A stretch of DNA of 64,000 nucleotides, taken from the NCBI GenBank assembly GCA_963664705.1, contig OY761556.1, positions 1,056,001-1,120,000 on the forward strand, given 5' to 3'. A program made the position numbers and the translations under genes. The notes below the pieces were generated by a model, which saw only the letters and a list, made by a program, of their open reading frames with translations, did no database searches and was not told the DNA's origin. This document shows positions 21,598 through 54,411 of the stretch, piece after piece. Origin of the DNA: Acidobacteriota bacterium. Lineage in GTDB: Bacteria > Acidobacteriota > UBA6911. Positions within the stretch are counted from its first letter, which is position 1; every line of letters begins with the position of its first letter.

Positions 21598-21654
21598 ACA
21601 ATTAGTGTCTACCATTAATTAATGCCGCAGAAGCGGCACCCGTTTGGAGAGCGT

Positions 21655-38935: not shown

Positions 38936-39691
38936 TTACTGAGAGGCAGAACCCGGGACAACCGGCATCACCGTATATAAGCCTTGGTTTTGAGCCAATG
39001 TCGTCAGGATGAAACTGGCGCCGGAGTTCGAGGAAAAGACGATCGTTCCCCGGAAACTATCGAGCGACGGGAAATCCTGGTATACATACCGGGATATTTT
39101 GTTTTTCGGTAGCAGCGGAACAAGCTTGGGCGTGTCGAGGGGGATTCCATCTTCGGAAAAGGCTTCCATCGTCACGATCATGGCTTCGGTCCCAGGGTTT
39201 GCGATCGCGTATGCCGTGTCGAGTTCCAGGTCCGGCTCATAGTCTACCGCTATCGTCGCTGATGTTGTGGGAGGATAGGCCAACACACCAGCGATACTTT
39301 TTATGATTACCCCCGATTCGGCATATTCAAAAGTGGCGATGCCTGTGATCGTGCCGCCCTCCCCCTCATATTTTGCCCATCCAGTTCGGAGGGCAGATCC
39401 CTGCATCCGGTACGAGCTCACGCCTTTCGAGCTGACCTCAATTTCGATCGGAGTTCTTGGATTCCCGGCGGGATCCCAGAACCAAAGCGCCCCAATGGCT
39501 GGAGTACTTCCGGTGTTGATAAAGGTGAAGGTAGTGGCGAATCCTCCTCCGGCGGCATAGTGGGGAAAGTAGATATTGAAAGGTACGCTCTGATCGGTTT
39601 GTCCGCTGGAAGCGGCGGGCCAGATCATCATTGCTAGAATAGCCAGACAGAACAGCCGATTCCAAAGACAAATCCCTCGGTGCAATTTCAT
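38936..39691 (-). CDS. Secreted protein made of two 'YFPH/Q' beta-sandwich modules
   Basis: Signal peptide, then IYFPHYAAGGGFATTF...DTAYAIANP...FRGTI; start estimated at MKLH. Confidence 0.7.
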   Translation of the reverse strand: MKLHRGICLWNRLFCLAILAMMIWPAASSGQTDQSVPFNIYFPHYAAGGGFATTFTFINTGSTPAIGALWFWDPAGNPRTPIEIEVSSKGVSSYRMQGSALRTGWAKYEGEGGTITGIATFEYAESGVIIKSIAGVLAYPPTTSATIAVDYEPDLELDTAYAIANPGTEAMIVTMEAFSEDGIPLDTPKLVPLLPKNKISRYVYQDFPSLDSFRGTIVFSSNSGASFILTTLAQNQGLYTVMPVVPGSASQ

Positions 39692-39800
39692 AGCTCGTTT
39701 CTCCGGTTTCTGTTTCCAGCCGAGGGGGGAAGGTGGCAAACCAAGCCAGCTGAAATTATGGTAGCACAGGAGGGATAATGCGGAAGAGGCGGGTTTTTCC

Positions 39801-39834
39801 CAAGAAGGCTCAAAGCCATCTTTGAGCCTTCTTG
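39801..39834 (-). terminator. Perfect 15-bp hairpin downstream of the 231-aa gene
   Basis: caagaaggctcaaag-ccat-ctttgagccttcttg. Confidence 0.7.
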
Positions 39835-39843
39835 ACTTTCTGG

Positions 39844-40539
39844 CTATGCGGGACGCTTCTTGCCTATTCGCGTGTAGAACTCTTCCGGGATGTCCGCTGG
39901 ATTCTTGTAGAACGTGAATTTGCAGGATCCGTTATTGATCGGTTCCTTTACGATATGAGTCGCGCCGAAATCACCGGCGTTTTCGATCTGAAGCATTTCC
40001 ATAACAGGGCAGTGCACGCAGTAAATTGGAAAATCCTTCATGCCCCAAGTAATCCGATGCGGCTCAGTAATGGTAGCCAACCCGACTTCCGGCGTGTATC
40101 CGCCTTTCTGTATAATCCGTTCGCCTGATCCGCATGGCTGCATTGTCAGACAAATTTTTGCATCATCTTCCTCGATTGTTATTGGCTGAAAATGCCCGCG
40201 CAACCCCGCGGCCAAACCCTGGACGAGTGAGCGGATGTCCGTTCTTTTCGGTGGTTTGAATACCGCTCTCGCTTCAACCGTGTGGGCAAATCTTTCCGCT
40301 TCCTCCACGGCGTCGACGCCGTGTTTCTCGTAAATGTATGTCAGCAGCCCGGAAACCCAGAACATGTATCCATCGTGAAGATAGTTGAATTCTTTTTGCA
40401 TCCGCTGTGCCAGCGTTTTGGCTTTGTCCTTGTCTCCGGCTTCGATGGCCTCGAGAACGAGATCCATCGTCCGTGTACCCATTTGCTTGAGTTCTTCATC
40501 TGTGAATAATCTGCTGCCGCTCATGTAGATAGTCTCCAT
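39844..40539 (-). CDS. Conserved hypothetical protein with Cys/His metal-binding motifs
   Basis: LHD, LRGH, PCGSG, YCVHC and a terminal C; normal globular composition. Confidence 0.75.
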   Translation of the reverse strand: METIYMSGSRLFTDEELKQMGTRTMDLVLEAIEAGDKDKAKTLAQRMQKEFNYLHDGYMFWVSGLLTYIYEKHGVDAVEEAERFAHTVEARAVFKPPKRTDIRSLVQGLAAGLRGHFQPITIEEDDAKICLTMQPCGSGERIIQKGGYTPEVGLATITEPHRITWGMKDFPIYCVHCPVMEMLQIENAGDFGATHIVKEPINNGSCKFTFYKNPADIPEEFYTRIGKKRPA

Positions 40540-40675
40540 AGAAGTTTTGGTTCCGGCCTGTCAACTGAGATTTAAGTGCCACCCGCATTGTTTCGGTCAT
40601 CTCGGCTCAATACGGACAGGTGAATCCGGATATTCAAAGCGAGTCCGTCTATGAATTTGTTGTGATCGTAACAGC

Positions 40676-41152
40676 GTGCCGAGATGCACACAACAAATAA
40701 GTATCAAAAAGTGGGCCAATATCGACCTGCGCCGGATCGACACACTGCCAATCAACCGCAGGCTGGTGGAAGTTCTAGCCCAGATTGAGAATTCGGCCAG
40801 GAGTGAGTGGGTTTTTGCAAATCGTGACTGGAAACCGCCCAAATCGATTAGAACTGCCTTTGAAACTGCCTGCCGAAATGCTAAATTATCCGACGTCACT
40901 CCGCATACTCCGCGGCAAACGTTTGCGAGCCGGTTGGGAATGCAGGGGGCAGGGGATCGAACCCTCCCGGTACTAGGACGCTGGAAGGAACCGAAGATGA
41001 TCCGCCGTTATGTCCAGCTCAGTGAACAGCATCTGAGGGAAACGGTGGAACGGCTCGTGGAAAACTCCCCAACAAATTTTACTACACTTGCCAATGAAGC
41101 CCCGGTTGGTGTAGCCTCTAAAATCAGTCCTATCAGTTATATGGGCCCATAG
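40676..41152 (+). pseudogene. Tyrosine recombinase/integrase C-terminal remnant
   Basis: WANIDL, FETAC..A.L.DVTPHTPRQTFASRL (degenerate HxLRH), LGRW...MIRRY; N-terminus absent. Confidence 0.8.
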
Positions 41153-41216
41153 CTCAGTTGGTTAGAGCAGCTGACTCATAATCAGCGGGTCGGGGGTTCA
41201 AGTCCCTCTGGGCCCA
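41143..41216 (+). tRNA. tRNA with CAT anticodon, probably tRNA-Ile2 (lysidine)
   Basis: Cloverleaf GGGCCCA/TGGGCCC, GCTC/GAGC, GCTGA-CTCATAA-TCAGC, GGGGG-TTCAAGT-CCCTC; paired 1-72 and no GGG/CCC anticodon stem, so not fMet; CCA not encoded. Confidence 0.93.
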
Positions 41217-41445
41217 CTCAAAATCCTCAGGACCTTACAGCTTTTCCTCAAGTTCCAAAAGCCTCCGGGGCAGCGCCTGAGTAGCAAAGCCTTGTGCTGG
41301 CGTCGCCATCAAAAATCTCGAGGTGTTGGTTATGCTAAAGCCTCTACATACATCGGTTAACTGAACTATGGAGAGGCCAGCCAGCAATGAGCATCCAGGT
41401 TTTCAGGCGCTCTGATGCCACGAAGACTCCATTTTTATTTTCGGG

Positions 41446-41658
41446 TTGCTTTGCATGTTTGAAGAAGGCCCTGGCGGATTCAAGGGCGGCATGAGCGCAG
41501 AGAAGTATATTCGTATCACATCGACTTCGCGTGCCACGGCCACGCGTGATTTGCAGGACCTTGTCGAAAAGGGCGCTCTCATTCGCCGCGGCGAGCTGAA
41601 ATACACTCGATATTTTTTGGGAGTCGATCCGGGCATCACTAATGCCGGCCTTCAATGA
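41446..41658 (+). pseudogene. C-terminal HTH remnant of a Fic-family protein
   Basis: GFKGGMSAEKY..IT.TSRATATRDLQDLVEKG; no Fic catalytic motif upstream. Confidence 0.7.
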
Positions 41659-41760
41659 ATCGATCTCCGGAGCAACGAAAGAACGCCATTATTTCTGAAG
41701 CTGCATTTTTCTGCAGTGCGCATGGGCGCGACTTCGAAACATAATCGCGCCACCACGCGA

Positions 41761-42807
41761 TCAAGAAAGAAAGATCTTGCGCGACTGCGCATAGACCTCA
41801 TCGGCGAATGCCGGAGTCAGCATAGGCGCGGCGTAATGGCCCAACTGCGCACTTCTTCCCGGGATGCTGAAGCGTTCAGCGTATTCGCGGCCGCGACGGC
41901 GCTGTTCTTCCTCGCTTGTTGTCTCAGGGTCAAATGATTCCGGCACCACGGAAATGCAGATCTTGTCGCCGACATCCTCCCAGAGCCGTGCGGTATCGTT
42001 CATTATCTGCGGATCCCAGGCGTCGAAGCCGGCATCGATGAAACACTGGACCCGGGCTTCGCCGTGGCCGCAGGAGTGCAGCGTAACATAGCGGCCCTTT
42101 GAATGGATGTGGTCGTTCAGTTCTTTCATATAGGGGACGATCATCCTGGCAACATCCATCGAGAAAAACGGCGCGCGCTGGGCCGCCCAATCGTCATGGA
42201 TATTGAAACCATCCAATCCCGGCCAGTAAGTGCAAAACTTATCCACCAGCTTGCATCCAAGATCCGTCAACTCGGCAAACAGCGCCTTGATCGCATCGAT
42301 CTGGTCGTCGTCAATGATCGCCATTGCGGCAGGCGCGAATTCCATTAGGGACACCAGCCGTTCAAAGCAAAAACCGTTGATAAACGTCATCATGGTGGAC
42401 ACGCGGCTGTCGAGTTTTGTCTTTTCGACCTCCCCCGCCCAGTCCCACGTGTCAATATCCGGCATCTTGATTTTATCTTTCCATTCATTGGCGTTTTGCA
42501 GAAAGGGCTTGCCCGGGCGCACCATCGAACCGCCGGCCGATTCCACCCATTCCCACTGTATGCCGAAAGCGTCCGTAATCCCCCCGGGGCCGCCGCGCCC
42601 CAGCTGATTGTTGTAAAGTGCGGGCAGAATCATGGCGGAATCTCCGGGCAGCGGCATCCAATAAGGATGTTTTTCGAAGAAAAGCGCCGAGATATTCTCT
42701 CGCGGCGTGACTGGGGTATCCCGAAGCGGATTTCCGGGACCGAAAAATGCGGGCAGAGTATCGATTACGCGCAGCTCATTCGGAACATACGGAATACGTC
42801 TTTTCAT
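41761..42807 (-). CDS. URO-D / methylcobamide methyltransferase (MtaA/CmuA-like) family protein
   Basis: DAFGIQW, FERL..LM, HDDW, LHSCG (HxC), WDPQIMND; ATG 42807 after GAGGAG. Confidence 0.8.
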   Translation of the reverse strand: MKRRIPYVPNELRVIDTLPAFFGPGNPLRDTPVTPRENISALFFEKHPYWMPLPGDSAMILPALYNNQLGRGGPGGITDAFGIQWEWVESAGGSMVRPGKPFLQNANEWKDKIKMPDIDTWDWAGEVEKTKLDSRVSTMMTFINGFCFERLVSLMEFAPAAMAIIDDDQIDAIKALFAELTDLGCKLVDKFCTYWPGLDGFNIHDDWAAQRAPFFSMDVARMIVPYMKELNDHIHSKGRYVTLHSCGHGEARVQCFIDAGFDAWDPQIMNDTARLWEDVGDKICISVVPESFDPETTSEEEQRRRGREYAERFSIPGRSAQLGHYAAPMLTPAFADEVYAQSRKIFLS

Positions 42808-42923
42808 CGCGGACTCCTCTAGTAAAGTGAGGAAACAGGGAATGCCAGGTCCGAGGTCCAATGAAGAGCCTGGAATCCAAACCGGCAGCCGATGCTTCCC
42901 ATCCATGTCGCATGCCCGAAAAG

Positions 42924-42976
42924 CGGGGCGGAAGTGCCGCGCCGACCATTTCGGCGCTCGTTTTACTTCCGCCCCG
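42924..42976 (-). terminator. Long hairpin downstream of the 43026 gene
   Basis: cggggcggaagt...gcgccga / tcggcgc...acttccgccccg. Confidence 0.55.
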
Positions 42977-43025
42977 TTCTATGCTGCACGGCAGGTGATT
43001 CCAGCTGAGAACTCGTCCTGCAGGG

Positions 43026-43964
43026 TTACCGTTTCGGTGCCGGAGTGTCGGCGTTGGTGCCGGTGGGGCCACGGAAGTCGCTCATCTTGAGATGCGTCAA
43101 CGTGTGCACGTAGCGAATCTTGCCGTTTTCCAGCCGGAACAGGTGCGTGTCCGGTGCACCGGAAGTGCCGGGGCCGCCGGCGCCGAATGTACACCAGACC
43201 ACTACCGAGCCGATCACCTCATCCACCACGAAGCGGCGGTTGGCGATGTTTACGCCTGCCGGCAGGCCGGCTTCGCAGGTATCCGCGTCCGTTCCCTTTG
43301 AAGTGGTCATGCCGCCCTCGACTCGCACGCACGGATAGCCCCAGGGAACCAGGTCGGCCCTCGCCTCCAGGAAGGCGTCAAGGTATGCACCAGCCCCGCG
43401 CTCCAGCTCGGTGCGGGTGTTGCGGCGGTCGGTGGGGATGGGCCCCCAATTTTCCTTCGACGTATACTCCAGGTAGTTGTCGGCGTTAAACAGCCACTCG
43501 CCCGTCGTAGTCGTAATCAGTTCGACCTCGGCGATCTTGTCATGGTTAATGCGCATGCGCACGCCGATCACATAGGGGTTGGCCTTATCGGTCACGATGA
43601 CCTCGGTGAAGGTCTGGCACGTTGCGTCGTCATACAGGCTCATGCTCTTGTCGATGTTGAGCGGCTTGGTGATGAGGCCGGTCTTGATGTCGGCGGGCTT
43701 CATGTTCTCCTGGTAGCCGAGGCCGTTGGCAAGCGGCAGAATGGAGAGGTCACCCTTGGCTTGTGCGGCCAGGTAGAGCCTGACGGCGTGTTGCAGGCCG
43801 CCGCGCTGGCAGGACACCATTGGGACTTGTGTGGCCTGCACTCCCGCCGGAGGATCCCCTGGTTTCGGCGCTTTAGCCTTCGGCATCTGTGCATGGCCCA
43901 ACGCGGGGATCAGGATAGCAGCGCAGAGAGCGACCCACATCGTGACTAATTTCGTATGTTTCAC
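43026..43964 (-). CDS. Secreted hypothetical protein (two similar Cys-containing halves)
   Basis: GTG after AGGAAAGGA; signal peptide ending GHA; C.R..L...V..YL.AQ and PC.R.EGG patterns. Confidence 0.75.
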   Translation of the reverse strand: MKHTKLVTMWVALCAAILIPALGHAQMPKAKAPKPGDPPAGVQATQVPMVSCQRGGLQHAVRLYLAAQAKGDLSILPLANGLGYQENMKPADIKTGLITKPLNIDKSMSLYDDATCQTFTEVIVTDKANPYVIGVRMRINHDKIAEVELITTTTGEWLFNADNYLEYTSKENWGPIPTDRRNTRTELERGAGAYLDAFLEARADLVPWGYPCVRVEGGMTTSKGTDADTCEAGLPAGVNIANRRFVVDEVIGSVVVWCTFGAGGPGTSGAPDTHLFRLENGKIRYVHTLTHLKMSDFRGPTGTNADTPAPKR

Positions 43965-44189
43965 TGGTTTTCCTTTCCTATAGATGATTGTATGACAAGA
44001 TGGACCGGCCGAGTTTCTGTTCTCGCGCCGTCGCATCATGACCTTCCGATAGGCGGCCTTGGGTTGCGCGCACATGCCTGCCGCCGCTTTCCAATGCCTG
44101 CTGAATCGGGATTTTACTGCAAAATCGGAATTATATTGCGAATATTCCGCAGCGGTTAGTACCGTTTACCAGGATTTGGGAGCATTTTT

Positions 44190-45422
44190 ATGTTGGAAGG
44201 CAAAAACCAGGGCATGATCCGCAAATACCTCCGAGTGCTTTTCCCGATTTTGTTTTCCGTGATCGTCTCCTCCATGGGCGCTGCCTTGACATACATCTTT
44301 CTATCCCTGATCCTCCCATCGCCAGTGATCGACTACACGGTGCCCGTACTGGTCTTTGTGGCCCTCTGCAATGCCTGTTTGCGGCTCTTGCTGAGGATCC
44401 GCCCGGCAAATGATTTCGCCCACTTGGCCTTGCCGCTTAGCCTTGCAGCCACGCTGCTGGCATTTGGCATTGTGGCTTTCCCAACGGTTCAGGAAGCCGT
44501 TCGGTTTCACCCTGCCCACGGCAGCGCCGAGGTTCTTCAAGCATTGCGACGGAATGCCTTCCCGCTGAAATCCGTGAGTGCGGGCCAAGGTTTCGATGAT
44601 CTGCGGCCCCTAAAAAGCATACTGGCAGGAAAGCGTATTGTGGCTCTGGGCGAGGCCACGCATGGGACCAGTCAGTTTTTCCGCATGAAACACCGCCTGG
44701 CGGAATTTCTGGTGGCAGAGATGGGCTTCCGGCATTTCGGGATGGAACTCAGCACCAGGGATGGCCACCTGCTGAACAACTACATCCAAGGAGAACCGGC
44801 AGATCCTCTCCAAGTGCTCTATTGGCCCTGGAGAACTCGAGAGGTGCTGGATATGCTTGCCTGGATGCGTGCCTACAATGCCAGCGCCAGTCCGCAAGAA
44901 CGTCTCACTTTTCATGGGATTGATCCCATTTACGGTAAGCGCGATCCCGTAATGGCGCAGAACGTGGCTCTCCTGCTGGAGGAAGCAGGTCCGGAAAGCA
45001 AGATGGTTCTGTGGGCACACAACGCTCATATCTCGAACAGAAACGGGTGGATGGGCCGTTACCTGAAAGCGAAGTGGGGCGATATGGCCTACTTGCTGGG
45101 TTTTGAGTTTGATCGCGGCGTGTTTACATCACGCATGGCGACTATCCATTCCTATGCGATCGGCGCAGCCTCTCCCGAATATTATGCGCATGCCCTGGCG
45201 CGGCTGGGCATTCCGGTGTTATACCTTGATTTCCAGGTTCTGTCCCGGTCGCCAGTTCTGCGCACCTGGCTTGAAACGCCTCAAAGCTCGCACGAGTTTC
45301 AGGAGCTGCATGCCATCTATCGGCTAAACCCGGAGTGGCACACTCTACATGACAGTTGGGCACAGCTTTATGATGGGATGATCTTCATTGAAGAAAGCAC
45401 GCCAGCCATATCTGTGCCGTAA
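44190..45422 (+). CDS. Erythromycin esterase (Ere/TIKI-fold) family protein with N-terminal TM segments
   Basis: IVALGEATHGT..FF, FGME, F.GID, RD..MAQN, VLWAHNAHI, YDGMIFI. Confidence 0.85.
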   Translation: MLEGKNQGMIRKYLRVLFPILFSVIVSSMGAALTYIFLSLILPSPVIDYTVPVLVFVALCNACLRLLLRIRPANDFAHLALPLSLAATLLAFGIVAFPTVQEAVRFHPAHGSAEVLQALRRNAFPLKSVSAGQGFDDLRPLKSILAGKRIVALGEATHGTSQFFRMKHRLAEFLVAEMGFRHFGMELSTRDGHLLNNYIQGEPADPLQVLYWPWRTREVLDMLAWMRAYNASASPQERLTFHGIDPIYGKRDPVMAQNVALLLEEAGPESKMVLWAHNAHISNRNGWMGRYLKAKWGDMAYLLGFEFDRGVFTSRMATIHSYAIGAASPEYYAHALARLGIPVLYLDFQVLSRSPVLRTWLETPQSSHEFQELHAIYRLNPEWHTLHDSWAQLYDGMIFIEESTPAISVP

Positions 45423-45433
45423 GGGAACATTGT

Positions 45434-48400
45434 TTATGGGATTGTATAGCTGAACGCAACCGCGCCGTTTTCCCTGCCGGGCGCCTCGTCCTTAGCCGGG
45501 TATGTCCTTACATAATCTACTTTCACGCCGATCGTTGAAACGGTCACTCGGGTATACCCGCTATTGGGGAACTTATCTCCGCTCAGGTAGGCATCTGCGT
45601 TGAACCAGGAATAGTTCGGGTCTGCCGGCTCTGAGAGTGTCTGGTAGGTAACCCCATCCAGCTGCTGCCGTACCCAGATGTGATCGTGTCCCTGAAAGAA
45701 GATTGTGACGTGATTGGCCACCATCAACTGATGAAGCGGAAGGCTCCATGTCGGACGGTTCTTTGAGAACCCCCACGTCCCGTTGGCATTCCCTCCGCCC
45801 CACTCATACAACCCCGCTATCTCCACTCCGCCCCTCTGGGTGCCCATCACGTGATGGGCGAAGACGAATTTGTATTTGGCCGTACTCTGCTCAAGAGTAG
45901 TTTTTAACCACTGGTATTCAGCGTCTCCATGGGTGATGTCCCACATGTTGGATCGTTTCGATCCGCCGCCAAACGGTGCATCCACGCACACTGGGGAAGA
46001 CCAGTAAGGATCAAGGACCACGAAAAGTGCATCGCCCCATTGCCAGGCGTAGTAGTTCCTCAGAAGCCCGATATACGGCACAACCTCCGCATTCCCGCTG
46101 TAAAACGAATCCGGTGCAGGTTGGGAATAGAGCGAATTTCGGGCATTCTGGGCCCAGACCGCCACATTATCAGGCGTTCCATCCAGCAGATACCTTGCCG
46201 CCTGCTCGTGATTTCCGTTTACAAGAAACAGTGGCGCTGTATTGCCGATCAGCCCGAGATAGGGTCGCTGCAGAGTATATCGTTCGTTCACCAATGACGG
46301 GTTGACGGTTGTGGGATCCAGATTGTCCACGCTGAAATCATCCCCCATCAGGATGTAAAAATCGGGATGATCTGCTGCCGCCGTTGCTAGGGTTCTTCTG
46401 TATAATTCCGCATCAAACTGCGATTTCTCACGCTCCGGGTGAGAATCGCCCTGAATCGCGAAGGTGAATGTCTCTCCGGCACTGCGTGCCGTATGAAAGC
46501 TCATCTCCGTACTGTTGCCGAAATTGCCTGTCCCTGCGGGTTTGAAGTATAGCCGGTAATAGTATCGCGTATTCTCCAGAAGCCCGGTCAGAGTGAATTC
46601 AACCGGGATGGACGGCTGAATGTTTGCGATAGAAGTCGTTTGTTCGTAGGTGCCGCTTGATTTTCCATAGGCGATAAATGCGGTCCCGCTCTGATCGGAA
46701 GTGAGCACATTCGCTTTGACAGAGTTTGCCGCTGGCGAACCAAGAACGATGCTGCCATCGAAAAGGCTCGTGCGGTCGGCTGCTCCGACGGCAATCAGCC
46801 GAGATGTAGAATTCGAACCCGCTGAATTCGTTACCGAAAGAGTAACGGAATATGAGCCGGCGCTCGCATATGTGTGCACTGGATTCCGGGTGGAACTTGA
46901 AACACCATCGCCGAAATTCCATGCCCAGGAAACGGGGCCTCCTGAACTTGAATCCGTGAACTGTATGCTCTGACCTGCAAGCGCCGCCGCCGGGCTCAAT
47001 GAAAATGATGCAACTGGCACTGTCGATTGCAGGGTCACCGACCAGGAATCATCGATTTCCCCATTCTTTTGCGTGGCCGTTTCGCTTGCCGGCAACCATG
47101 CCCGCACGTATTGGGCTTGAGCGCTGTTTGGCGAGACCGTAACTCGCAGATGACCGCTGCTGCTCAATATTGTTCCGGAAGAATAGTGATACTGCGTTGC
47201 AAGCGCCGCGCCGCTGGAGGTGTTTTTGGCGCTGGGCTGGGGAACCTCCAGGTAAACGATTCCATCGAGAGTTTGTCTTGCGTACAAATGATCATGGCCG
47301 TGAAACACTGCCGTGACGCCATACTGCTTGAGCATCTGATGGATAGGAACGCCCCAGCCCGGACGGTTTTTGCTGAACCCATCCGTGCCGTCCGGATTTT
47401 TCCCGCCCCATTCAAAATAGGGCGCAGCTTCAATGCCTCCTCGGTATTGCCCGTCAAGTCCGCCCACCAGGCTGTGAATGAAAATGAACTTGTAGGTTGC
47501 GGAACTTGCTGCAAGTGTATCTCGCAGCCATTGGTACTGCTTCGGCCCAAGAGTCAGATTCCAGCCGTCCGTACCACCTTTTGCTCTTGTATTCCAATAA
47601 GGGTCCAGAACGACAAACAGGGCATCGCCCCACTGCCACGAATACCATGACGCACGCTCTCCGACAAATGCCTCTGACGTTGTATCCCCTCCGTAAAAGG
47701 GATCGGGTGTTGGATTCAAATAGAATTGCTGACGTGCTTCCGTCGTCCACACTGCAAGGTTATTTGCAGTGCCATCAACGAACCAGCCGGTCTCGCCTTC
47801 GTGGTTTCCGTTGACGAGGAACAATGGCACCGACGGACTGATGATTCCGAAATTGCCCCGTTCATATTCGTAACGGGCATTAACCGTTGCCGGATCCCGG
47901 GCCGTTTGTACTGTTGATGTCAAGGGAGCGGAATACTTCTCGCACATGAACGTATCACCCAAGTCGATGTGGAAATCGGGCGCATCCGCTTGAACATTGC
48001 TTAGGGTTTTGCGATAGAGATTCAGATCCGAGTTCTCATCGAGGTGGGAGTCGGCTTGGATCGTAAATGTAAACGAGGTGCCGGCCGGCCGGGCGGTTCG
48101 AAAGGTATACCAATCTGTTGGCCCGCTGCTGCTACCGGCTGAAGCCTCATAAAAAAGGCGATAGTAGTACACTGTGTTTTCATACAATCCAGTAAGCGCA
48201 ATCTGCATCGGAATACCGGCAGAGAGGGTGGCCGAGGATGTCTGATTATCGAGCTTTCCGGGACTCGTTCCATACTGAACCGAGATCTTTCCGCTCTGAC
48301 CGGCAGAATATATATTCAGCTTTATGGAATTCGAAGTTGGTGCTCCAAGAAGGATGCTGCCCGAAAAACTCCCCTTCCCATAGGTAACGACTGGCAACGT

Positions 48401-49828
48401 TGTCAGCGCGAGAGGAGAACCGCTAATGCGCAACGCTAGAGCCGCTACTTCCGTACTTGAACTTACCCAAAGGGATCCTTTGAAATCATGGATTCCAGGG
48501 AATAGTTCTGAAACCATTTTTGCCATGTGACCGCCGGCGGAAAGGCTCATCGTGAAACCCATGCCGACTGCGTTCCCTTCAGTATCCAGCAACTGGATTT
48601 TCAGAGAATCATCTGAGCTGGTGGTTCCGGTGAGGGCTATTCCAGTGTCGTAATCTCCGGTCACCACCACCGGCACTGCAAATGAATTCAGCGCAGTTGA
48701 GCCGTTTACGGCCGCCTCAGTCTGAAAAGCTCCGGTTGAGTTCAAAACGGTGAAGATGCCGGACACGCTAACTGGAATATCAGAGGTAATCATCGCTGCG
48801 GCAGTATTCAGGCCGCCGACTCCATCGGTCTGCAGGAACAACGATGCCCCCGAGGCAAGATTCGAAAAAGTGAAAATATTCCGCCTTCCTTGCCCAATGA
48901 TGGTCATGCTGACTGGTTTTCCATCATCGCCGGTCAAGCTTAAAGTCACATTGGCCGGTGCTGCAGAAATGTTGGTAATTAGAAAGGACGTTTTATAGAT
49001 GCCGCTGCCAAACGATCCGTTCGCAATTTGTGGGAGGTACAGTTTCTGTTCCGTCGAGCTTGTCGAAACGCTGGATACCGAGGTATAGGACAGCGGGGAA
49101 GCATTCTCCCTCAGTGCAATTGACGCCAAGGGTTCTGAAGACTGGACCAGTATGGATCCCTGGAAATTAGCCACTGTCGGAAAGAGCTGTCCAGGCCCGT
49201 ATACATAATGGGCAATGTGCTTGTTTGCCCCTAAAGTGAAAATTACCGGTATCCCGGATTGTTGGCCACTGCTATCCCGCAACGTGAGGGTCACCGTCGC
49301 ATCTCTGCCTGTGGTATTGAGAACCGCAAGAGCTGTATTGAAGGAGGCTGTAGTATCGACGGGAAGCACAAAACTGGATAGTGGTTTCGCGTCACTGATG
49401 CCGGTTTCGGTATAGTGAGTTCCATCCATGTCATAAACTCTGAAGATTTCCGATACTCCAATCTCTGCGGGGGAGGAGATCTTCGCGACACCGGCAACCA
49501 GGCTTCCTTGTCCATCCGTTTCAAGCAGTTGCGTGCCTCCGGCTGGCAGGTGAATGGTAAATCTGCTGCCTGAATTCCCATCCACCGCCATTATCAGAGG
49601 GTTTCCCTCGTCATCGAATAATTCCAAAGTGGCAGCAAAAGCGGAACCGCTGTTGTTGCAAAGCACAAAGGTAGTTGTGAATCTCCCTCCATTGCCTCCG
49701 TTGGCAATCTGCGGCAAATAATAAACGCTCTGCGCATATAGGCTGTTTGCGAAAAAGCATGCTGTGCAGAGAACAATAAGCAGATATTTGCAAATTGAAA
49801 TTGTTTTCCTCGTCATCAGGACTCGCAT
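45434..49828 (-). CDS. Secreted protein: 449-aa repeat module, two FN3-metallophosphoesterase domains and a PKD domain
   Basis: Two full sets of DSH / GD / GNHE / H / GHDH; PKD SWAWNFGDG between them. Confidence 0.88.
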   Translation of the reverse strand: MRVLMTRKTISICKYLLIVLCTACFFANSLYAQSVYYLPQIANGGNGGRFTTTFVLCNNSGSAFAATLELFDDEGNPLIMAVDGNSGSRFTIHLPAGGTQLLETDGQGSLVAGVAKISSPAEIGVSEIFRVYDMDGTHYTETGISDAKPLSSFVLPVDTTASFNTALAVLNTTGRDATVTLTLRDSSGQQSGIPVIFTLGANKHIAHYVYGPGQLFPTVANFQGSILVQSSEPLASIALRENASPLSYTSVSSVSTSSTEQKLYLPQIANGSFGSGIYKTSFLITNISAAPANVTLSLTGDDGKPVSMTIIGQGRRNIFTFSNLASGASLFLQTDGVGGLNTAAAMITSDIPVSVSGIFTVLNSTGAFQTEAAVNGSTALNSFAVPVVVTGDYDTGIALTGTTSSDDSLKIQLLDTEGNAVGMGFTMSLSAGGHMAKMVSELFPGIHDFKGSLWVSSSTEVAALALRISGSPLALTTLPVVTYGKGSFSGSILLGAPTSNSIKLNIYSAGQSGKISVQYGTSPGKLDNQTSSATLSAGIPMQIALTGLYENTVYYYRLFYEASAGSSSGPTDWYTFRTARPAGTSFTFTIQADSHLDENSDLNLYRKTLSNVQADAPDFHIDLGDTFMCEKYSAPLTSTVQTARDPATVNARYEYERGNFGIISPSVPLFLVNGNHEGETGWFVDGTANNLAVWTTEARQQFYLNPTPDPFYGGDTTSEAFVGERASWYSWQWGDALFVVLDPYWNTRAKGGTDGWNLTLGPKQYQWLRDTLAASSATYKFIFIHSLVGGLDGQYRGGIEAAPYFEWGGKNPDGTDGFSKNRPGWGVPIHQMLKQYGVTAVFHGHDHLYARQTLDGIVYLEVPQPSAKNTSSGAALATQYHYSSGTILSSSGHLRVTVSPNSAQAQYVRAWLPASETATQKNGEIDDSWSVTLQSTVPVASFSLSPAAALAGQSIQFTDSSSGGPVSWAWNFGDGVSSSTRNPVHTYASAGSYSVTLSVTNSAGSNSTSRLIAVGAADRTSLFDGSIVLGSPAANSVKANVLTSDQSGTAFIAYGKSSGTYEQTTSIANIQPSIPVEFTLTGLLENTRYYYRLYFKPAGTGNFGNSTEMSFHTARSAGETFTFAIQGDSHPEREKSQFDAELYRRTLATAAADHPDFYILMGDDFSVDNLDPTTVNPSLVNERYTLQRPYLGLIGNTAPLFLVNGNHEQAARYLLDGTPDNVAVWAQNARNSLYSQPAPDSFYSGNAEVVPYIGLLRNYYAWQWGDALFVVLDPYWSSPVCVDAPFGGGSKRSNMWDITHGDAEYQWLKTTLEQSTAKYKFVFAHHVMGTQRGGVEIAGLYEWGGGNANGTWGFSKNRPTWSLPLHQLMVANHVTIFFQGHDHIWVRQQLDGVTYQTLSEPADPNYSWFNADAYLSGDKFPNSGYTRVTVSTIGVKVDYVRTYPAKDEAPGRENGAVAFSYTIP
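48386..49732 (-). repeat. Copy 2 of the duplicated 1347-bp N-terminal module
   Basis: QSVYYLPQIANG ... LALTTLPVV, colinear with 51108-52454. Confidence 0.9.
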
Positions 49829-49853
49829 CAGGTCTCTCTGGAGTTCTTGCCTT

Positions 49854-52550
49854 TTAGGGCTCGAAGAACAGGTAATCCGTATTGCTGATATAGGGCGCTA
49901 GCAGGCCTGCATCATTGATGACGCTCGAATAGAGAAAGGGCGTTGTGCAAATCGAGAAATCAAAGGCCGTTCCGTCTGAATAGGTGCCCGACATTATGGA
50001 TTTGCGTAGTGCCGCAAACTTGGTTTTCTGTTCGGCACTAAGAGTATTGAACACTTGGGATATCACTGTTGCATAGTGATAGTTATTCTCGCCATCCAGA
50101 TCCCCATAGGTTTCAGACAATGCGAGCACTTGATTTTTGATCTCATCCGTTGCAACCGTGGTTGTCATCAGACTTCGCAGCAGTGTAGAGATCTGAGTCC
50201 GAAGGTTTACGATGTTGGAAATGGGGGATGAGTACAGGTTATTCCTCTGGATGTCCACCAGGTTATTGAAAGCTGCAGCCTGGTTTGCTGTGACATAGCC
50301 TCTGGAGCTGTCACTGAGCGCCGACCCAGCGGTAGCCGTCAGCTGTTCATTGATGCTGTAGCCTTCATGCCCTACGGCCGGAGCATCCTTGATATAGAAT
50401 CCTCCATAGTAAGTCCCATGACGCTCGGGACAGAAGTAGACATCGGCCGTCACTGATCCGGCATACCAGCTGAAGATGTCGCTTGCATAGGTCATCACTG
50501 CCACCGAGGTGTCTCGTGGAAGTTTTTGCATCTTGGCTTTAATTAGATCGTTGCTGATGTCCGGCCAGGAAGCCCATCCCTTGCCTTTCATGGCATTCAG
50601 GTAGGTCTTCTGCGTTGAGTCCATGGAGTTGAGGATATTGGCATAGAGGAGAGCGCGATCGAAGCTCATCTGGCCGTCGATGAGGTAGAGTGCCCGTGAA
50701 GCCTGCCTTACCGCATTGAGGTTCAGCCCATTGGAGCCGGCGGGAGTGCTGCCATCGAGTTGGCGGCGAAATGCCTGCATCAAAGGAAATCGTTTGTAGC
50801 CGTATAGATCAATCCGGCTTTGCTCGGTTGTAGCAAGGGAACCCAATTGGGCTAACTGTGCATCAGTTAGGATGTAGATGATATTGTTTGCAATTCGGGT
50901 CAGAAAACTGGTGTTGTGCCCCATGTCGTCCGGATCATTGTCTCGCAGGTACTGAAACCCAAAATAATCCGAAACCTTTCCCGGAGGGAAGAAGGACTGT
51001 GCGTCCAGATTCCCCGTCATCATAGCAAGTCCAGAGAAAGCTATGGTTGTGCTCTGGGCCTGATCGGAAATCGTGTCGGACATGCTGAATCTTGCATTAA
51101 AGTTTGAAATGACAGGCAATGTTGTCAACGAAAGGGGTGAATTATTAATGCGCAGGATCAAAGCCGCCAAATCCGCTGTTGAACTGACTAAAAGCGATCC
51201 TTGAAAATTACTGATTTGTGGAAAGAGTTCTGAAACCATCTTGGCCATATGGCCCTTTGCCGGCAGGTCAAGCTTCAGACTGGTTCCGACCGCTGTCCCG
51301 CTTTCATCCATCAGTTGAAGATTCAAAGAAGCAGCAGAACTGGTGATTCCCTGGAAAGCGATCCCGGTATCAAATGCCCCGGTGACCGCCACCGGTATTG
51401 TGATGGATGATAGCCCCGCAGATCCGCTTACCGCAGCCTCGGTTTGAAAGGCTCCTGCCGAATCAAAAATCGTGAATATGCCGGATACACCGATTGGAAC
51501 ATCCGATGCTATCGTTGCCGCACCAGTAGTCAGGCTGCCAGTTCCATCGGTCTGAAGAGATAATGAAGCTCCCGAAGCAAGGGGCGAAAAGGCGAAATTG
51601 CTATGCTTCCCCTGTCCGATTATGGTCATGTTCACGGGGTTCCCATTATCGTCAGTCAAACTCAAAGTCACATTGGCCGGTTTTGCAGAGATATTTGTAA
51701 TCAGAAAGGACGTTTTATATGCGCCATTGCCAAACGATCCGTTAGCAACCTGAGGGAAATACTGCGTTTGATCGAGCGAATTCGTCGGTATGCTGGACAA
51801 CGCGGTATAGGACAGCGGGTATGAGTTTTCTCTCAAGGCTACCGAGGCCAATGGTTGCGAAGACTGAACCAATAGAGATCCCTGGAAATTGGACGCCGAT
51901 GGAAAGAGCTGTCCTGAACCGGAAATATATCGGGCAATGTGCTTGTTTGCCCCAATTGTCAAGGTAACCGGGGCCCAGGACTGTTTGCCGCTATTGTCAC
52001 GTAATGTGAGCGTGGCGGTGGCATTCGAATTTGCTGTGTTGAGGAATGCCAGCGCTGTATTGAAGTTCCCTGTTGTATCCACGGGAAGCACAAAGCTGGA
52101 CAGAGGTGTCGCACTGTTGATGCCGGTCTCAGTAAAGTGAATCCCATCAACTTCGTAAACCCTGAATATTTCCGATACTCCTATCTTTGCCGAAGAGGAG
52201 AGCCTTGCTACTCCGCTCACCAGACTTCCTTGGCTGTTGGTCTCCAGCAGGCGGGAACTTCCAGCGGGCAACTGAATGACAAAATGGCTGTTGGAACTTC
52301 CACCTACATTCATTATCAGTGGATTTCCATTGTTATCGAATAGGTCCAGGTTGGCGGTAACAGCGGCACTGCTGTTGTTGCAGAGCACGAAGGTTGTTTT
52401 GAACCTGCCCTCATCCCCACCGTTGGCAATTTGGGGTAAATAATAGATATTTTGGGCAAAAGCATTGCCGGCCCAAAAACATGCCAGCCAAAACAGACCC
52501 CATCCGATGACTGTCTTTCTTGATTTGTTGATTTGAATTGCCCGCCGCAT
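49854..52550 (-). CDS. Secreted protein: 449-aa repeat module plus uncharacterised C-terminal domain
   Basis: Signal peptide ending AFA; strong SD GAGGAGG; C-domain FFPPGKVSDYFGFQYLRDND...YFCPERHGTYYGGFY. Confidence 0.85.
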   Translation of the reverse strand: MRRAIQINKSRKTVIGWGLFWLACFWAGNAFAQNIYYLPQIANGGDEGRFKTTFVLCNNSSAAVTANLDLFDNNGNPLIMNVGGSSNSHFVIQLPAGSSRLLETNSQGSLVSGVARLSSSAKIGVSEIFRVYEVDGIHFTETGINSATPLSSFVLPVDTTGNFNTALAFLNTANSNATATLTLRDNSGKQSWAPVTLTIGANKHIARYISGSGQLFPSASNFQGSLLVQSSQPLASVALRENSYPLSYTALSSIPTNSLDQTQYFPQVANGSFGNGAYKTSFLITNISAKPANVTLSLTDDNGNPVNMTIIGQGKHSNFAFSPLASGASLSLQTDGTGSLTTGAATIASDVPIGVSGIFTIFDSAGAFQTEAAVSGSAGLSSITIPVAVTGAFDTGIAFQGITSSAASLNLQLMDESGTAVGTSLKLDLPAKGHMAKMVSELFPQISNFQGSLLVSSTADLAALILRINNSPLSLTTLPVISNFNARFSMSDTISDQAQSTTIAFSGLAMMTGNLDAQSFFPPGKVSDYFGFQYLRDNDPDDMGHNTSFLTRIANNIIYILTDAQLAQLGSLATTEQSRIDLYGYKRFPLMQAFRRQLDGSTPAGSNGLNLNAVRQASRALYLIDGQMSFDRALLYANILNSMDSTQKTYLNAMKGKGWASWPDISNDLIKAKMQKLPRDTSVAVMTYASDIFSWYAGSVTADVYFCPERHGTYYGGFYIKDAPAVGHEGYSINEQLTATAGSALSDSSRGYVTANQAAAFNNLVDIQRNNLYSSPISNIVNLRTQISTLLRSLMTTTVATDEIKNQVLALSETYGDLDGENNYHYATVISQVFNTLSAEQKTKFAALRKSIMSGTYSDGTAFDFSICTTPFLYSSVINDAGLLAPYISNTDYLFFEP
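51108..52454 (-). repeat. Copy 1 of the duplicated 1347-bp N-terminal module
   Basis: QNIYYLPQIANG ... LSLTTLPVI. Confidence 0.9.
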
Positions 52551-52834: not shown

Positions 52835-53305
52835 CTATCGCCTTCTTTGCGGTTCTCCTGGCAGCGGTGGCGGCGGCTGTGATTCCTTTTTCTGTAGAAT
52901 CTGCCATTGAGCCGACGTCAAAACCATTCGTAGCTTTAAACTCATCTGGGCAACCGCACGCATCATATCTGCGCGGGTGGTCACGACCTGATCAATCGCT
53001 TCCTGCCCGCGCCTGGGATCCACTTTTTCATCATTCATAATTTGCTGCAAAACCGCCTCGGCTTTGTCGGCGGCACCACGCAGTTGGATCAACTGGTCGC
53101 GGGATTCGGCTACAGTTGCACGGATTTTCTTGTTTTGTTCTTCGCTTAGTCCCAGATCCCTGACAATAGGTTGATCCCACCAAGCTGTGGTTTCGGGTTT
53201 CGGGCGCGGTCCCCGGCCGCCCTGCGGGTTCCGGTCTTGGGCGGATCCGATATTTGTGAACGCCGCAATGATGCACATTAACACGCTGATTCTCAGAGTA
53301 TTCAT
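52835..53305 (-). CDS. Spy/CpxP/ZraP-like periplasmic protein
   Basis: Signal peptide, LGLSEEQ and VLTSAQW (LTxxQ) motifs, helical composition. Confidence 0.82.
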   Translation of the reverse strand: MNTLRISVLMCIIAAFTNIGSAQDRNPQGGRGPRPKPETTAWWDQPIVRDLGLSEEQNKKIRATVAESRDQLIQLRGAADKAEAVLQQIMNDEKVDPRRGQEAIDQVVTTRADMMRAVAQMSLKLRMVLTSAQWQILQKKESQPPPPLPGEPQRRR

Positions 53306-53724
53306 TTTCCTACCTCGAATAGAGACCGGATCGGTTCCGCTGAACTCGGGAGAGGATCCGAGATTCTGGAAAAGATATCATCGAAAAGCTCAGAGTCCGA
53401 AATATGCTGCTTGGGTGGAGGCTGTATTGAAGAGGGTCTTCGAACCATCACAACGGCAAAAATCATAAGTGTAACGAGTACCGGAACCAGAATTATGGGA
53501 AAGGGTCGGCGTTTTGCATGGATCCGGGCATGAATGGCTCGCCTCTGTCCGGCAAGAAAGTCTGGGGATACTTCAATCCCAACAGGCTGAAAGTTTTCAA
53601 GTCCACTGCGAATCGCTTTAAGCCTCTTGGCGCATGAGACACATTTGGCAAGGTGATCATCCCCGGGACGCACATCATAGACCAGGGCAAAAAGCTCCTC
53701 ATCCGTCCAATGTTTATCGTACAT
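53302..53724 (-). CDS. Zinc-binding transmembrane anti-sigma factor
   Basis: H...HLAKCVSC (HxxxCxxC), one TM helix; overlaps both neighbours. Confidence 0.85.
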   Translation of the reverse strand: MYDKHWTDEELFALVYDVRPGDDHLAKCVSCAKRLKAIRSGLENFQPVGIEVSPDFLAGQRRAIHARIHAKRRPFPIILVPVLVTLMIFAVVMVRRPSSIQPPPKQHISDSELFDDIFSRISDPLPSSAEPIRSLFEVGK

Positions 53725-54295
53725 ACAAGTCTCTCAATTCTGCGCGCAGTTTCTTTATTGCGCGAGCCATGTGGGCTTTTACCGTACCGGTGTTCAGGTT
53801 CATTATTCCGGCAATCTCTTCGAAGCTCAGCTGTTCTTCGTGACGAAAAATGAAAATCGCCTTCTGGCGGGCGGATAATCGCTCAAGGGACCTTTCCAAA
53901 CGATGTCGAATTTCCTGACCCTTGGCTTCGTCTTCTTGTGTCGGGCCGGATGCAGGTGTCGCCCGGAGCATGTCATCGCTGAAGGCATCCCTTGAGTGTT
54001 TCTGCCAGAAACGCCATCTTTTCGACCGGATGCGATTGTAGCAAGTGTTGAAGGCAACGCGGGTGAGCCACTTTGGCGGTTCCTGAATACTGCTCCGGCC
54101 ATTTTTCTCAAGGGTCTTATAGGCCTCAACGAAGACATCCTGTGTGGCAGAATCAGCCTCATCGCGGTTTCGGAGCAGGCGCATGCATAGCACAAAAATT
54201 CTTTCCTGCTCCTCGGCCATCCATGCCTCGAAGTCGATCTCATGCATGACTAATTCCACGTCTCCCACCGTCAGAACACTCTCCTGAGCTTCCAT
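53714..54295 (-). CDS. ECF RNA polymerase sigma factor
   Basis: EADSATQDVF, WLTRVAFNTC, LS.RQK.IF, EEIA..M....GTVKAH..RA; start at ATG 54295. Confidence 0.93.
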   Translation of the reverse strand: MEAQESVLTVGDVELVMHEIDFEAWMAEEQERIFVLCMRLLRNRDEADSATQDVFVEAYKTLEKNGRSSIQEPPKWLTRVAFNTCYNRIRSKRWRFWQKHSRDAFSDDMLRATPASGPTQEDEAKGQEIRHRLERSLERLSARQKAIFIFRHEEQLSFEEIAGIMNLNTGTVKAHMARAIKKLRAELRDLYVR

Positions 54296-54303
54296 ATTCT
54301 TAT

Positions 54304-54332
54304 TGTCGTGGATGTTTTGCAAATCGATTACA
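54304..54332 (-). promoter_or_regulatory. ECF-type autoregulatory promoter, copy 1 (tGTAA-N16-CCACGACA)
   Basis: Minus strand tgtaa tcgatttgcaaaacat ccacgaca, 8 nt before the sigma ATG. Confidence 0.7.
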
Positions 54333-54411
54333 TAAAGAGAGCAGGAAAATCCAGCGATTCCAATTTGACTAACGCCGCTCAGTGCCGAAGGAAGCCATAC
54401 CACCAGATAGC

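What the first reader, a model, noticed from the sequence alone, without database searches (positions are those of the whole stretch)
38936..52454. A swappable 'YxPQIANG' carrier module used on different payloads, possibly a lineage-specific display or sorting domain
52454-51108 and 49732-48386 are both exactly 1347 bp (449 aa), begin at residue 33 right after the signal peptide, and are colinear and highly similar. Similarity stops abruptly at TTLPV(I/V), where unrelated payloads begin. The module is itself two ~225-aa units (Y.PQ.ANG...TTF/TSF...DT..A..). A stand-alone version is the gene at 38936 (IYFPHYAAGGGFATTF...DTAYAIANP), and related units lie in the Kelch protein (IYSPQFA...ATGVALLN). 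Inference: a portable scaffold, anchor or S-layer-association module, functionally analogous to SLH, PEP-CTERM or T9SS C-terminal tags.
Basis: partly seen in the sequence, partly recalled or inferred. Interest (0 to 1): 0.7.

Follow-up and report, generated by a model that had tools for sequence, protein, structure and literature searches.

The report
Four-repeat ring tagging acidobacterial secreted proteins
A small beta-sandwich domain, always in two or four copies, is fused to 26 unrelated signal-peptide-bearing proteins of this bacterium and likely works as a ring-shaped clip that holds enzymes and adhesins on the cell surface, probably borrowed from an undescribed surface-coat protein.

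Summary
In detail: the two 449-aa modules are 304/449 identical without gaps, and similarity stops at residue 481. The true repeat is ~110 aa, so the module has four repeats. Its predicted fold matches Thermotoga TM1070 and the Anabaena sensory rhodopsin transducer (Z 14.1 and 11.3; next 7.0), the ASRAH fold, whose solo members are homotetramers. The genome has 26 carriers: 14 four-repeat and 12 two-repeat. Six are circularly permuted, which points to a closed ring. All have signal peptides and no other anchor. The same payloads elsewhere carry lipoboxes, CFI-box-CTERM, dockerin, Soli_cterm or DUF4214. A low-copy, one-repeat relative with S-layer-like architecture lies beside a type II secretion cluster here and in 8 of 10 related genomes examined. 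Best reading: a non-covalent surface-attachment tag, a fused copy of that protein's predicted tetramer. Against strict lattice dependence, several module-rich genomes lack a detectable one-repeat gene. Binding, location, oligomer and lattice are untested. New variant of a known fold.

The parts
49854..52550 (-). Gene A, 898 aa: signal peptide, four-repeat module, then a ~413-aa payload of no known family
51108..52454 (-). Module of gene A (residues 33-481): four ASRT/TM1070-like repeats at about 52454-52110, 52109-51780, 51773-51420 and 51413-51108
49857..51095 (-). Payload A: no Pfam or NCBIfam family; 3765 homologs, the best 120 at 69-82% identity, nearly all of those without the module
45434..49828 (-). 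Gene B, 1464 aa: signal peptide, four-repeat module, purple-acid-phosphatase-like unit, PKD, second phosphatase-like unit
48386..49732 (-). Module of gene B (residues 33-481), 68% identical to that of gene A
38936..39739 (-). Stand-alone two-repeat protein with signal peptide (repeats at about 39580-38951; the real start is probably the ATG near 39691, inferred)
21622..26304 (+). Kelch/beta-propeller protein, 1560 aa, with a C-terminal four-repeat module
23893..24498 (+). Kelch protein: repeat 1 and first part of repeat 2 (HMM positions 7-68 of 108)
24499..25530 (+). 344-aa Kelch propeller inserted in a loop of repeat 2
25531..26292 (+). Kelch protein: rest of repeat 2 (HMM 76-97), then repeats 3 and 4; DUF5719 hit of 41 bits (cut-off 26.2)
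52835..54403 (-). ECF sigma factor, probable anti-sigma and Spy/CpxP-like gene directly upstream of genes A and B, same strand (probable operon, inferred)

Best explanation
The module is four (or two) tandem ~110-aa repeats with the predicted ASRT/TM1070 beta-sandwich fold, which likely close into a ring and likely fasten the fused enzyme or adhesin non-covalently to the cell surface after predicted export. Shown: the repeat structure, the even copy number, the circular permutation, the fusions, the signal-peptide-like N-termini, the absence of other anchors, and homology to a one-repeat protein encoded beside a type II secretion cluster. Predicted: the fold. Inferred, step by step: (1) Sec export, then type II secretion across the outer membrane. 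(2) Four repeats fold into a single-chain copy of the homotetramer that solo ASRAH domains form; two-repeat proteins would pair up to complete it. (3) The ring binds an envelope polymer, most likely a surface glycan, through clefts at the repeat interfaces. (4) It is the portable form of the hub by which four copies of the one-repeat, S-layer-like protein would assemble and hold on to the cell. Appending the ring to an incoming gene would replace the lipid, sortase-type or dockerin anchor that the same payload uses in other lineages.
For: Fold: model pLDDT 94.3, pTM 0.90, so the repeats pack rigidly. Best matches are 1nc7 (Z 14.1, rmsd 1.9, 101 aligned) and 2ii7 (Z 11.3); the next is 7.0. TM1070 is a tetramer whose pocket walls are partly formed by the dimer interface, and secreted ASRAH proteins occur as dyads or tetrads (PMC2739507). 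Ring: 26 of 26 carriers have 2 or 4 repeats. In six, repeat 1 starts at HMM position 43-49 and a C-terminal cap supplies positions 2-46 (five read; the start of the sixth). The linker into the cap is 10 residues against 11 between units (5 of 6 measurable). Anchor role: 26 of 26 have a hydrophobic N-terminus; none has an internal or C-terminal membrane helix by a 19-residue hydropathy scan; two lipobox-like matches lie inside signal peptides. Payload A homologs: module in 2 of 121, crude lipobox in 38 of 121, CFI-box-CTERM above cut-off in 5 of the 42 scanned, dockerin in 2. The S8-PA protease ends in the module here, in Soli_cterm in G270 (167.6 bits) and in DUF4214 in G135 (37 bits). One-repeat relative: homologous to the module (hhalign 91.5%, E 8.6e-7); its C-terminal domain matches 1nc7 (Z 11.3, rmsd 2.7, 104 aligned); found in 23 of 28 genomes of the class; within 20 kb of gspD/L/K/G/F/E in 8 of 10 other genomes examined. 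Two module carriers share its N-terminal domains (E 1.6e-35 and 5e-23).
Against: No binding, localisation or oligomer was measured or predicted. No ligand is established for any secreted ASRAH protein; the 2009 assignment is a prediction. The ASRT pocket His/Cys and the strand-1 Trp are absent. Three of 5 other S8 homologs have no recognised tag, and by my reading many payload A homologs have none either. The one-repeat gene was not found in module-rich G017, G035, G051, G179 (one weak hit in G018), G112, G273 or G262, G110, G235, and the secretion cluster is conserved without it in G017, G035, G110 and G179. It is not near the cluster in G134, G015 or G270. Its codon bias is unremarkable for an S-layer gene (rank 206 of 2994 by one measure, 1192 by another). 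The polysaccharide cluster next to it here is not conserved (0-1 of 10). The genome also has 11 PEP-CTERM matches, so it has another tagging route.
Confidence: 0.5

Rival explanations
1. Lattice plug-in. The one-repeat protein is a true S-layer subunit that forms four-fold nodes, and the module attaches payloads by protein-protein contacts, occupying a node (four repeats) or half a node (two repeats).
For: One-repeat protein: two Ig/cohesin-like domains plus one repeat, single match in this genome, 460-nt upstream gap and strong terminator, next to type II secretion genes as slr4 is (PMC7821379). Atlas lead to a cluster with 20% Slr4 members at 0.90. The 771-aa paralog keeps both N-terminal domains and replaces one repeat by four. 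In the same genus, the two genomes without the one-repeat gene have only 2 module matches each.
Against: Module-rich genomes without a detectable one-repeat gene. No Slr4 Pfam hit in 35 family members or in the genome. Long branch (1.11) between one-repeat and module repeats in a quick tree. Many one-repeat orthologs are ~200-aa single domains. G270 has the one-repeat gene but only 2 module matches.
Confidence: 0.2
2. Periplasmic wall binder. The proteins stop in the periplasm and the ring binds peptidoglycan or another wall glycan, like the amidase-fused ASRAH tetrads of Chloroflexi.
For: ASRAH tetrads fused to N-acetylmuramoyl-L-alanine amidases (PMC2739507). A signal peptide alone delivers only to the periplasm in a diderm. 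No SLH match in the genome.
Against: Payloads include adhesin-like stalks (nine FN3-like repeats plus cohesin, InlB-B repeats) and large proteases, and no wall hydrolase was recognised among the 26. Link to type II secretion genes.
Confidence: 0.12
3. Export carrier. The folded ring is a recognition tag or folding scaffold for the type II secretion system, and payloads are released rather than held.
For: gspD above cut-off in this genome and gspD homologs in 5 of 5 further module-bearing genomes. A module gene lies within about 12 kb of gspD in G110 and G179. A folded tag can work at either end.
Against: Stand-alone two-repeat proteins with no cargo are common. A 450-aa tag is large for a signal. 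What it replaces on homologous payloads are anchors.
Confidence: 0.1
4. Inert stalk or stabiliser. The repeats only space or stabilise payloads, like generic Ig-like arrays.
For: All-beta, Ser/Thr/Gly-rich, mean column identity 27%. Foldseek returns only generic Ig arrays at TM <= 0.16.
Against: Copy number fixed at 2 or 4, circular permutation, rigid packing (pTM 0.90) and stand-alone forms do not fit a variable-length spacer.
Confidence: 0.08

Closest known systems
ASRAH superfamily (ASRT, PF07100; TM1070, PDB 1NC7; Anabaena ASRT, PDB 2II7; De Souza, Iyer and Aravind 2009, PMC2739507)
   Same: Same beta-sandwich fold (Z 14.1 and 11.3), Asn at the end of strand 2 in 65 of 71 repeats, secreted forms as dyads or tetrads.
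   Different: 10% identity; no PF07100 hit; no strand-1 Trp and no His/Cys pocket signature. The three described families are solo intracellular, amidase-fused, or actinobacterial lipoproteins. None is fused to many payloads, circularly permuted, or paired with a one-repeat secreted partner, and the main text does not name Acidobacteria.
DUF5719 (PF18986)
   Same: Above the gathering score in 3 of 26 carriers (41, 29.7 and 29.6 bits against 26.2); nearest named Atlas clusters, one with 39% DUF5719 and 13% ASRT members.
   Different: 23 of 26 do not reach the cut-off, and two of the three best stretches cover about 70 of 319 positions. No lipobox. Function unknown; the term is in 0 papers of the library. 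Equating DUF5719 with the paper's actinobacterial family is my inference.
Soli_cterm (TIGR03437), the expanded C-terminal domain of Solibacter
   Same: Lineage-specific ~220-aa domain on many secreted proteins of Acidobacteriota; closes the same S8-PA protease in G270.
   Different: No hit in this genome or on the 26 carriers; above cut-off in 39 of 301 genomes, mostly other families than the module-rich ones. C-terminal by name, whereas this module sits at either end.
Slr4 (PF19526), p4 S-layer protein of Pseudoalteromonas tunicata (PMC7821379)
   Same: For the one-repeat partner: about 500 aa, Sec signal peptide, type II secretion cluster nearby; Atlas lead at 0.90.
   Different: No PF19526 hit, so a parallel in layout only; lattice not shown here.
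SLH (and CWB2) envelope-binding repeats
   Same: Working principle as I recall it (no call): a fixed number of repeats forms one pseudo-symmetric unit that binds an envelope polymer, is shared by S-layer proteins and enzymes, and sits at either end.
   Different: Those units are three-fold and not beta-sandwich rings (recalled). No SLH match in this genome, while 4 control genomes ring.

Membership tests
ASRAH superfamily | Beta-sandwich congruent with TM1070/ASRT | tested here: met
   1nc7 Z 14.1, rmsd 1.9, 101 of 116 aligned on repeat 4; 2ii7 Z 11.3; next hit 7.0. On a predicted model.
ASRAH superfamily | Near-invariant Asn at the end of strand 2 | tested here: met
   65 of 71 repeats; strand assignment
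ASRAH superfamily | Conserved Trp at the start of strand 1 | tested here: not met
   Tyr/Phe in a-type repeats, small or aliphatic residues in b-type; Trp is not among the four commonest residues at these columns. Hence called a remote relative, not filed as a member as defined in 2009.
ASRAH superfamily | Secreted forms occur as dyads or tetrads | tested here: met
   12 dyads and 14 tetrads among 26. The search was seeded with a two-repeat profile; the one-repeat relative was found separately.
ASRAH superfamily | Tetrameric assembly | not tested
ASRAH superfamily | Sugar or small-molecule binding in the cleft | not testable with these tools
   Predicted only, also in PMC2739507
ASRT family (PF07100) | Profile match and His/Cys signature on strand 2; solo intracellular domain | tested here: not met
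   0 matches at E 0.1, Thermotoga control rings; no His/Cys at those columns; all carriers have signal-peptide-like N-termini
DUF5719 (PF18986) | Gathering score 26.2 bits | tested here: inconclusive
   Reached by 3 of 26, mostly with partial coverage
Actinobacterial ASRAH lipoproteins | Lipobox cysteine after the signal peptide | tested here: not met
   No credible lipobox in 26 by a crude pattern
Soli_cterm (TIGR03437) | Profile match above 29.05 bits | tested here: not met
   0 in this genome; 39 of 301 phylum genomes above cut-off
PEP-CTERM / T9SS C-terminal sorting signals | Fixed C-terminal position; membrane helix (PEP-CTERM) or T9SS tail profile | tested here: not met
   C-terminal in 12 of 26 only; no C-terminal helix; no such NCBIfam tag on the 26
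SLH domain (PF00395) | Profile match | tested here: not met
   0 in the genome, 4 controls ring
Slr4 (one-repeat partner) | PF19526 match | tested here: not met
   0 of 35 members at E 0.1; 0 in the genome at E 1 (no control reached the cut-off)
S-layer protein (one-repeat partner) | Secretion system encoded nearby | tested here: met
   gsp cluster within about 25-36 kb here and within 20 kb in 8 of 10 others; not in G270
S-layer protein (one-repeat partner) | Among the most abundant proteins of the cell | tested here: inconclusive
   Codon-bias rank 206 or 1192 of 2994 in a genome with weak bias
S-layer protein (one-repeat partner) | Self-assembly into a 2D lattice on the cell | not testable with these tools
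   Needs electron microscopy

The most novel reading that the evidence does not exclude
The one-repeat protein beside the type II secretion cluster is the missing S-layer subunit of this class of Acidobacteriota (with relatives in the Solibacter-like lineage), and it tetramerises through its ASRT-like domain into a square lattice. The two- and four-repeat modules are genetically fused copies of that four-fold node: a natural S-layer display system in which dozens of enzymes and adhesins plug into the coat, and two-repeat carriers pair combinatorially.
Probability: 0.25. Interest if true: 0.85.

Novelty: new variant of a known kind. Interest (0 to 1): 0.62.

Why it matters
Acidobacteriota are abundant and mostly uncultured, and a 2024 survey says S-layers in the phylum 'remain ambiguous' (bioRxiv 10.1101/2024.05.28.596244, passage). 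This gives a named candidate subunit with a conserved secretion locus, and a domain with no Pfam or NCBIfam model of its own that marks 26 putative surface proteins here and matches in 27 of 27 other genomes of the class sampled. It also ties DUF5719 and the ASRT fold to a testable role in surface attachment. The natural series of one, two, four and circularly permuted repeats is a clean case of an oligomer turned into a single chain. If the ring does clip cargo to a coat, it is a position-independent display tag.

Tried and rejected
Not available: the complex prediction (four copies of the one-repeat domain; queue full) and the 1.84-billion-protein profile search (queue full, ten tries). So the oligomer and the range outside this phylum are open. 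The search for related loci on named genomes gave one irrelevant 41-residue hit, so the class has no name here. Foldseek on both models gave only generic Ig arrays (TM <= 0.16; <= 0.29). Sequence searches of the PDB gave nothing better than E 0.036. No solved S-layer protein was among the 50 VIA rows shown for either model, which excludes nothing. Catalytic role rejected: only Ala/Gly are invariant in 32 units. Recent gene conversion between genes A and B rejected: third positions are 50% identical. Frameshift or assembly artefact rejected: continuous frames, and the same module-payload A fusion occurs in P0001 and P0015. The conserved downstream neighbour of the one-repeat gene (19 of 30 loci) was not found in this genome. 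The tree is a quick one with 38 of 97 forks open: it separates three four-repeat subfamilies and puts four repeats of the divergent C-terminal type next to the one-repeat group with weak support (80-83); no order of events is claimed. Earlier scan findings: none on this feature; two unrelated selenoprotein notes. Paper searches that found no description of this module or of an acidobacterial S-layer protein, judged from listings.
Full report
1. Observation. Genes A (52550-49854) and B (49828-45434) each carry a 449-aa block from residue 33 to 481. The blocks align without gaps at 304/449 aa and 953/1347 nt, with 78, 84 and 50% identity at the three codon positions, and identity collapses after residue 481. 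The two halves are 35-42% identical, and the 38936 protein matches them at E 3e-11 to 0.02. An HMM iterated on the 21,945 ORFs of the genome converged on 26 proteins with 49 domain hits, and found none in the reversed ORFs.

2. The real repeat. The two halves of each ~225-aa unit are homologous (hhalign 96.8%, E 3e-10). With a 108-position profile, the same 26 proteins resolve into 12 with two repeats and 14 with four (my reading of the coordinates). The module is N-terminal in 11, C-terminal in 12, internal in 1 and alone in 2. Six C-terminal cases are circularly permuted: the first repeat starts at profile position 43-49 and a ~40-residue cap at the C-terminus supplies positions 2-46 (the start of one of the six was seen only). 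The linker into the cap is 10 residues, against 11 between units, in the 5 measurable cases. The simplest reading is a closed ring (inference); strand exchange between chains is the alternative. In the window's Kelch protein, a 344-aa propeller is inserted between profile positions 68 and 76 of repeat 2. In 29 loci from other genomes, 32 module ORFs also read as two or four repeats once partial segments and cut ends are allowed for. These were picked with a two-repeat profile, so single repeats could not appear, and part of the output was cut.

3. Fold. The AlphaFold2 model from a 31-row alignment has pLDDT 94.3 and pTM 0.90 and is all-beta. Foldseek gave nothing above TM 0.16. The wide VIA search put Thermotoga TM1070 (1nc7, Z 14.1, rmsd 1.9, 101 aligned) and the Anabaena sensory rhodopsin transducer (2ii7, Z 11.3) well above the next row at 7.0. 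De Souza et al. 2009 (PMC2739507; whole main text read) define this ASRAH superfamily. TM1070 is a tetramer with a cleft partly walled by the dimer interface; secreted members come as dyads (actinobacterial lipoproteins) or tetrads (Chloroflexi amidases); sugar binding is predicted. The strand-2 Asn is present in 65 of 71 repeats. The strand-1 Trp and the His/Cys pocket are not, and PF07100 does not match. The main text does not name Acidobacteria. The supplement held was only 2,805 characters and had no hit for three acidobacterial terms, so the full alignment file may hold members I could not see. DUF5719 passes its cut-off in 3 of 26 carriers, and the Atlas gives unnamed Acidobacteriota clusters first and DUF5719 as the nearest named ones (its recognition value of 1884 is below the tool's reliable range). 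No NCBIfam model covers the module.

4. Payloads and anchors. Payloads include phosphatase-like plus PKD, Kelch, S8-PA protease plus beta-helix, M6 protease plus FG-GAP, NHL (2), FN3-like arrays (2, one with cohesin), InlB-B repeats (3), BNR, cupredoxin, PPC and choice-of-anchor Z. All 26 have a hydrophobic N-terminus, and none shows a further membrane helix or a credible lipobox by crude scans. Payload A has 3765 homologs; the best 120 are 69-82% identical and include labels from Syntrophus, Verrucomicrobiota and Magnetominusculus. Of 121 examined, 2 carry the module (one with four repeats, one with two) and 38 match a lipobox pattern. Of the 42 with extra sequence that I scanned, 5 pass CFI-box-CTERM and one falls just short; 2 have a dockerin. 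The S8-PA payload had 5 homologs in 3 of 5 genomes searched: one ends in Soli_cterm, one in DUF4214 (its link to S-layer anchoring is recalled, not tested), and three have no recognised tag. The phosphatase payload occurs in 5 of 300 other genomes, with no module in the ORFs of the loci examined; G099 has payload A next to two phosphatase genes. The cassette therefore looks imported and locally tagged (inference).

5. Distribution. The unit profile matches 69 of 301 genomes of the phylum, 27 of 27 others in the class, and all members of two outside families (8/8 and 4/4). As a rule only ten candidates per genome were scored, so these are not copy numbers. The phylum is Acidobacteriota by homolog labels; the class is not named by any search. 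Soli_cterm is absent here and is concentrated in other families.

6. A one-repeat relative. Two carriers share N-terminal domains with a 498-aa protein at C1 5482612-5484108 that ends in a single repeat. Its family profile aligns with the module (91.5%, E 8.6e-7). Its model (pLDDT 86.4) has two Ig/cohesin-like domains and a C-terminal domain matching 1nc7 (Z 11.3, rmsd 2.7). It matches 24 of 301 genomes, 23 of 28 in the class, with one to three matches each (eight of these genomes, plus this one, supplied seeds). Here it stands alone between a 460-nt gap and a strong terminator, near a four-repeat paralog, a polysaccharide cluster and a full gsp cluster. In 10 of the 22 other class genomes that have it, I read up to 20 kb on each side: the gsp cluster is there in 8, the four-repeat paralog in 4, and the polysaccharide genes in at most 1. 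The p4 S-layer gene slr4 likewise follows a type II secretion cluster (PMC7821379, passages). The Atlas offers Slr4 only as a weak lead and the Pfam model does not match. A 2024 survey calls S-layers in Acidobacteriota ambiguous (bioRxiv 10.1101/2024.05.28.596244, two passages); its supplementary tables were closed and might list a member.

7. Results against. The one-repeat gene was not found in G017, G035, G051 or G179, and only at E 0.007 in G018; nor in G112, G273, G245 or G016 (found in G270), nor in five class members (where no genome rang). Several of these have ten or more module matches. Around gspD in G017, G035, G110 and G179 there is no one-repeat gene, though G110 and G179 have a module gene there. 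G270 and G261 have it without gsp genes in the stretch read (the G261 contig is short). Many orthologs are ~200-aa single domains, and some carry payloads themselves. Codon bias does not single it out. These points argue that the module does not need this lattice everywhere, so I rank envelope binding above lattice plug-in.

8. Mechanism and verdict. Most likely (0.5) the four repeats form a single-chain ring, two-repeat forms pair, and the ring holds type II-exported payloads on the surface by binding an envelope polymer, as the portable form of the hub of an S-layer-like protein. Rivals are lattice plug-in (0.2), periplasmic wall binding (0.12), export carrier (0.1) and inert stalk (0.08). 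It works like SLH-type attachment repeats (principle recalled) but is not one, and it is a remote ASRAH/DUF5719 relative that lacks one defining residue. The searches listed under Tried and rejected found no paper on it. New variant of a known kind; interest 0.62.

Noticed in passing
G000:C1:5482612-5520363 (L053, L031, L071): Candidate S-layer-like gene with one ASRT-like repeat, a four-repeat paralog, a polysaccharide cluster and a complete type II secretion cluster; ECF sigma, anti-sigma and TPR genes follow the candidate. The ECF/anti-sigma/TPR/FG-GAP block stays beside gspD even in genomes without the candidate.
   Followed up: yes
window 49857-51095 (-): Payload A is an unnamed ~410-aa family, 69-82% identical across several phyla among its best 120 homologs, 3765 homologs in all, with many different anchors; often near phosphatase-like and PEBP-like domains. 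Function unexplained.
   Followed up: partly
window 52835-54403 (-): ECF sigma, probable anti-sigma and Spy/CpxP-like gene upstream of genes A and B: a possible envelope-stress or metal-responsive cassette.
   Followed up: no
P0031, P0042 (residues ~35-46): Two payload A homologs have, right after the signal peptide, only a short motif resembling strand 1 of the module and none of the rest. It could be a donor strand for an incomplete repeat elsewhere; untested.
   Followed up: no
L065, L072, L089, L090, L073: In one family the one-repeat domain itself is fused C-terminally to unrelated payloads (PKD-like and leucine-rich, by eye), so single repeats are also used as tags.
   Followed up: partly
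L138 (G110), about 7.5-9.0 kb (-): Stand-alone four-repeat protein inside a polysaccharide/ABC-export cluster about 11 kb from gspD.
   Followed up: no
L088, L136, P0157, P0158: The one-repeat family extends to the Soli_cterm-rich lineage as 530-870-aa Ser/Thr/Gly/Ala-rich secreted proteins. Ten of 11 non-self homologs lie on contigs under 3.5 kb, several barely longer than the gene.
   Followed up: partly
window 60061-61197 (+): Secreted 378-aa protein made of four ~85-aa Trp-rich repeats with no Pfam family above cut-off.
   Followed up: no
window 61272-63215 (+): Secreted protein with two Big_2 domains and a long Gln/Asn/Pro-rich region.
   Followed up: no
window 17683-21162 (-): TonB-dependent-receptor-like beta-barrel gene transcribed divergently from the Kelch/module gene.
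   Followed up: no
window 40676-41152 (+): Short ORF that looks by eye like the C-terminal remnant of a tyrosine recombinase, between the stand-alone module gene and the A/B cassette; not scanned.
   Followed up: no
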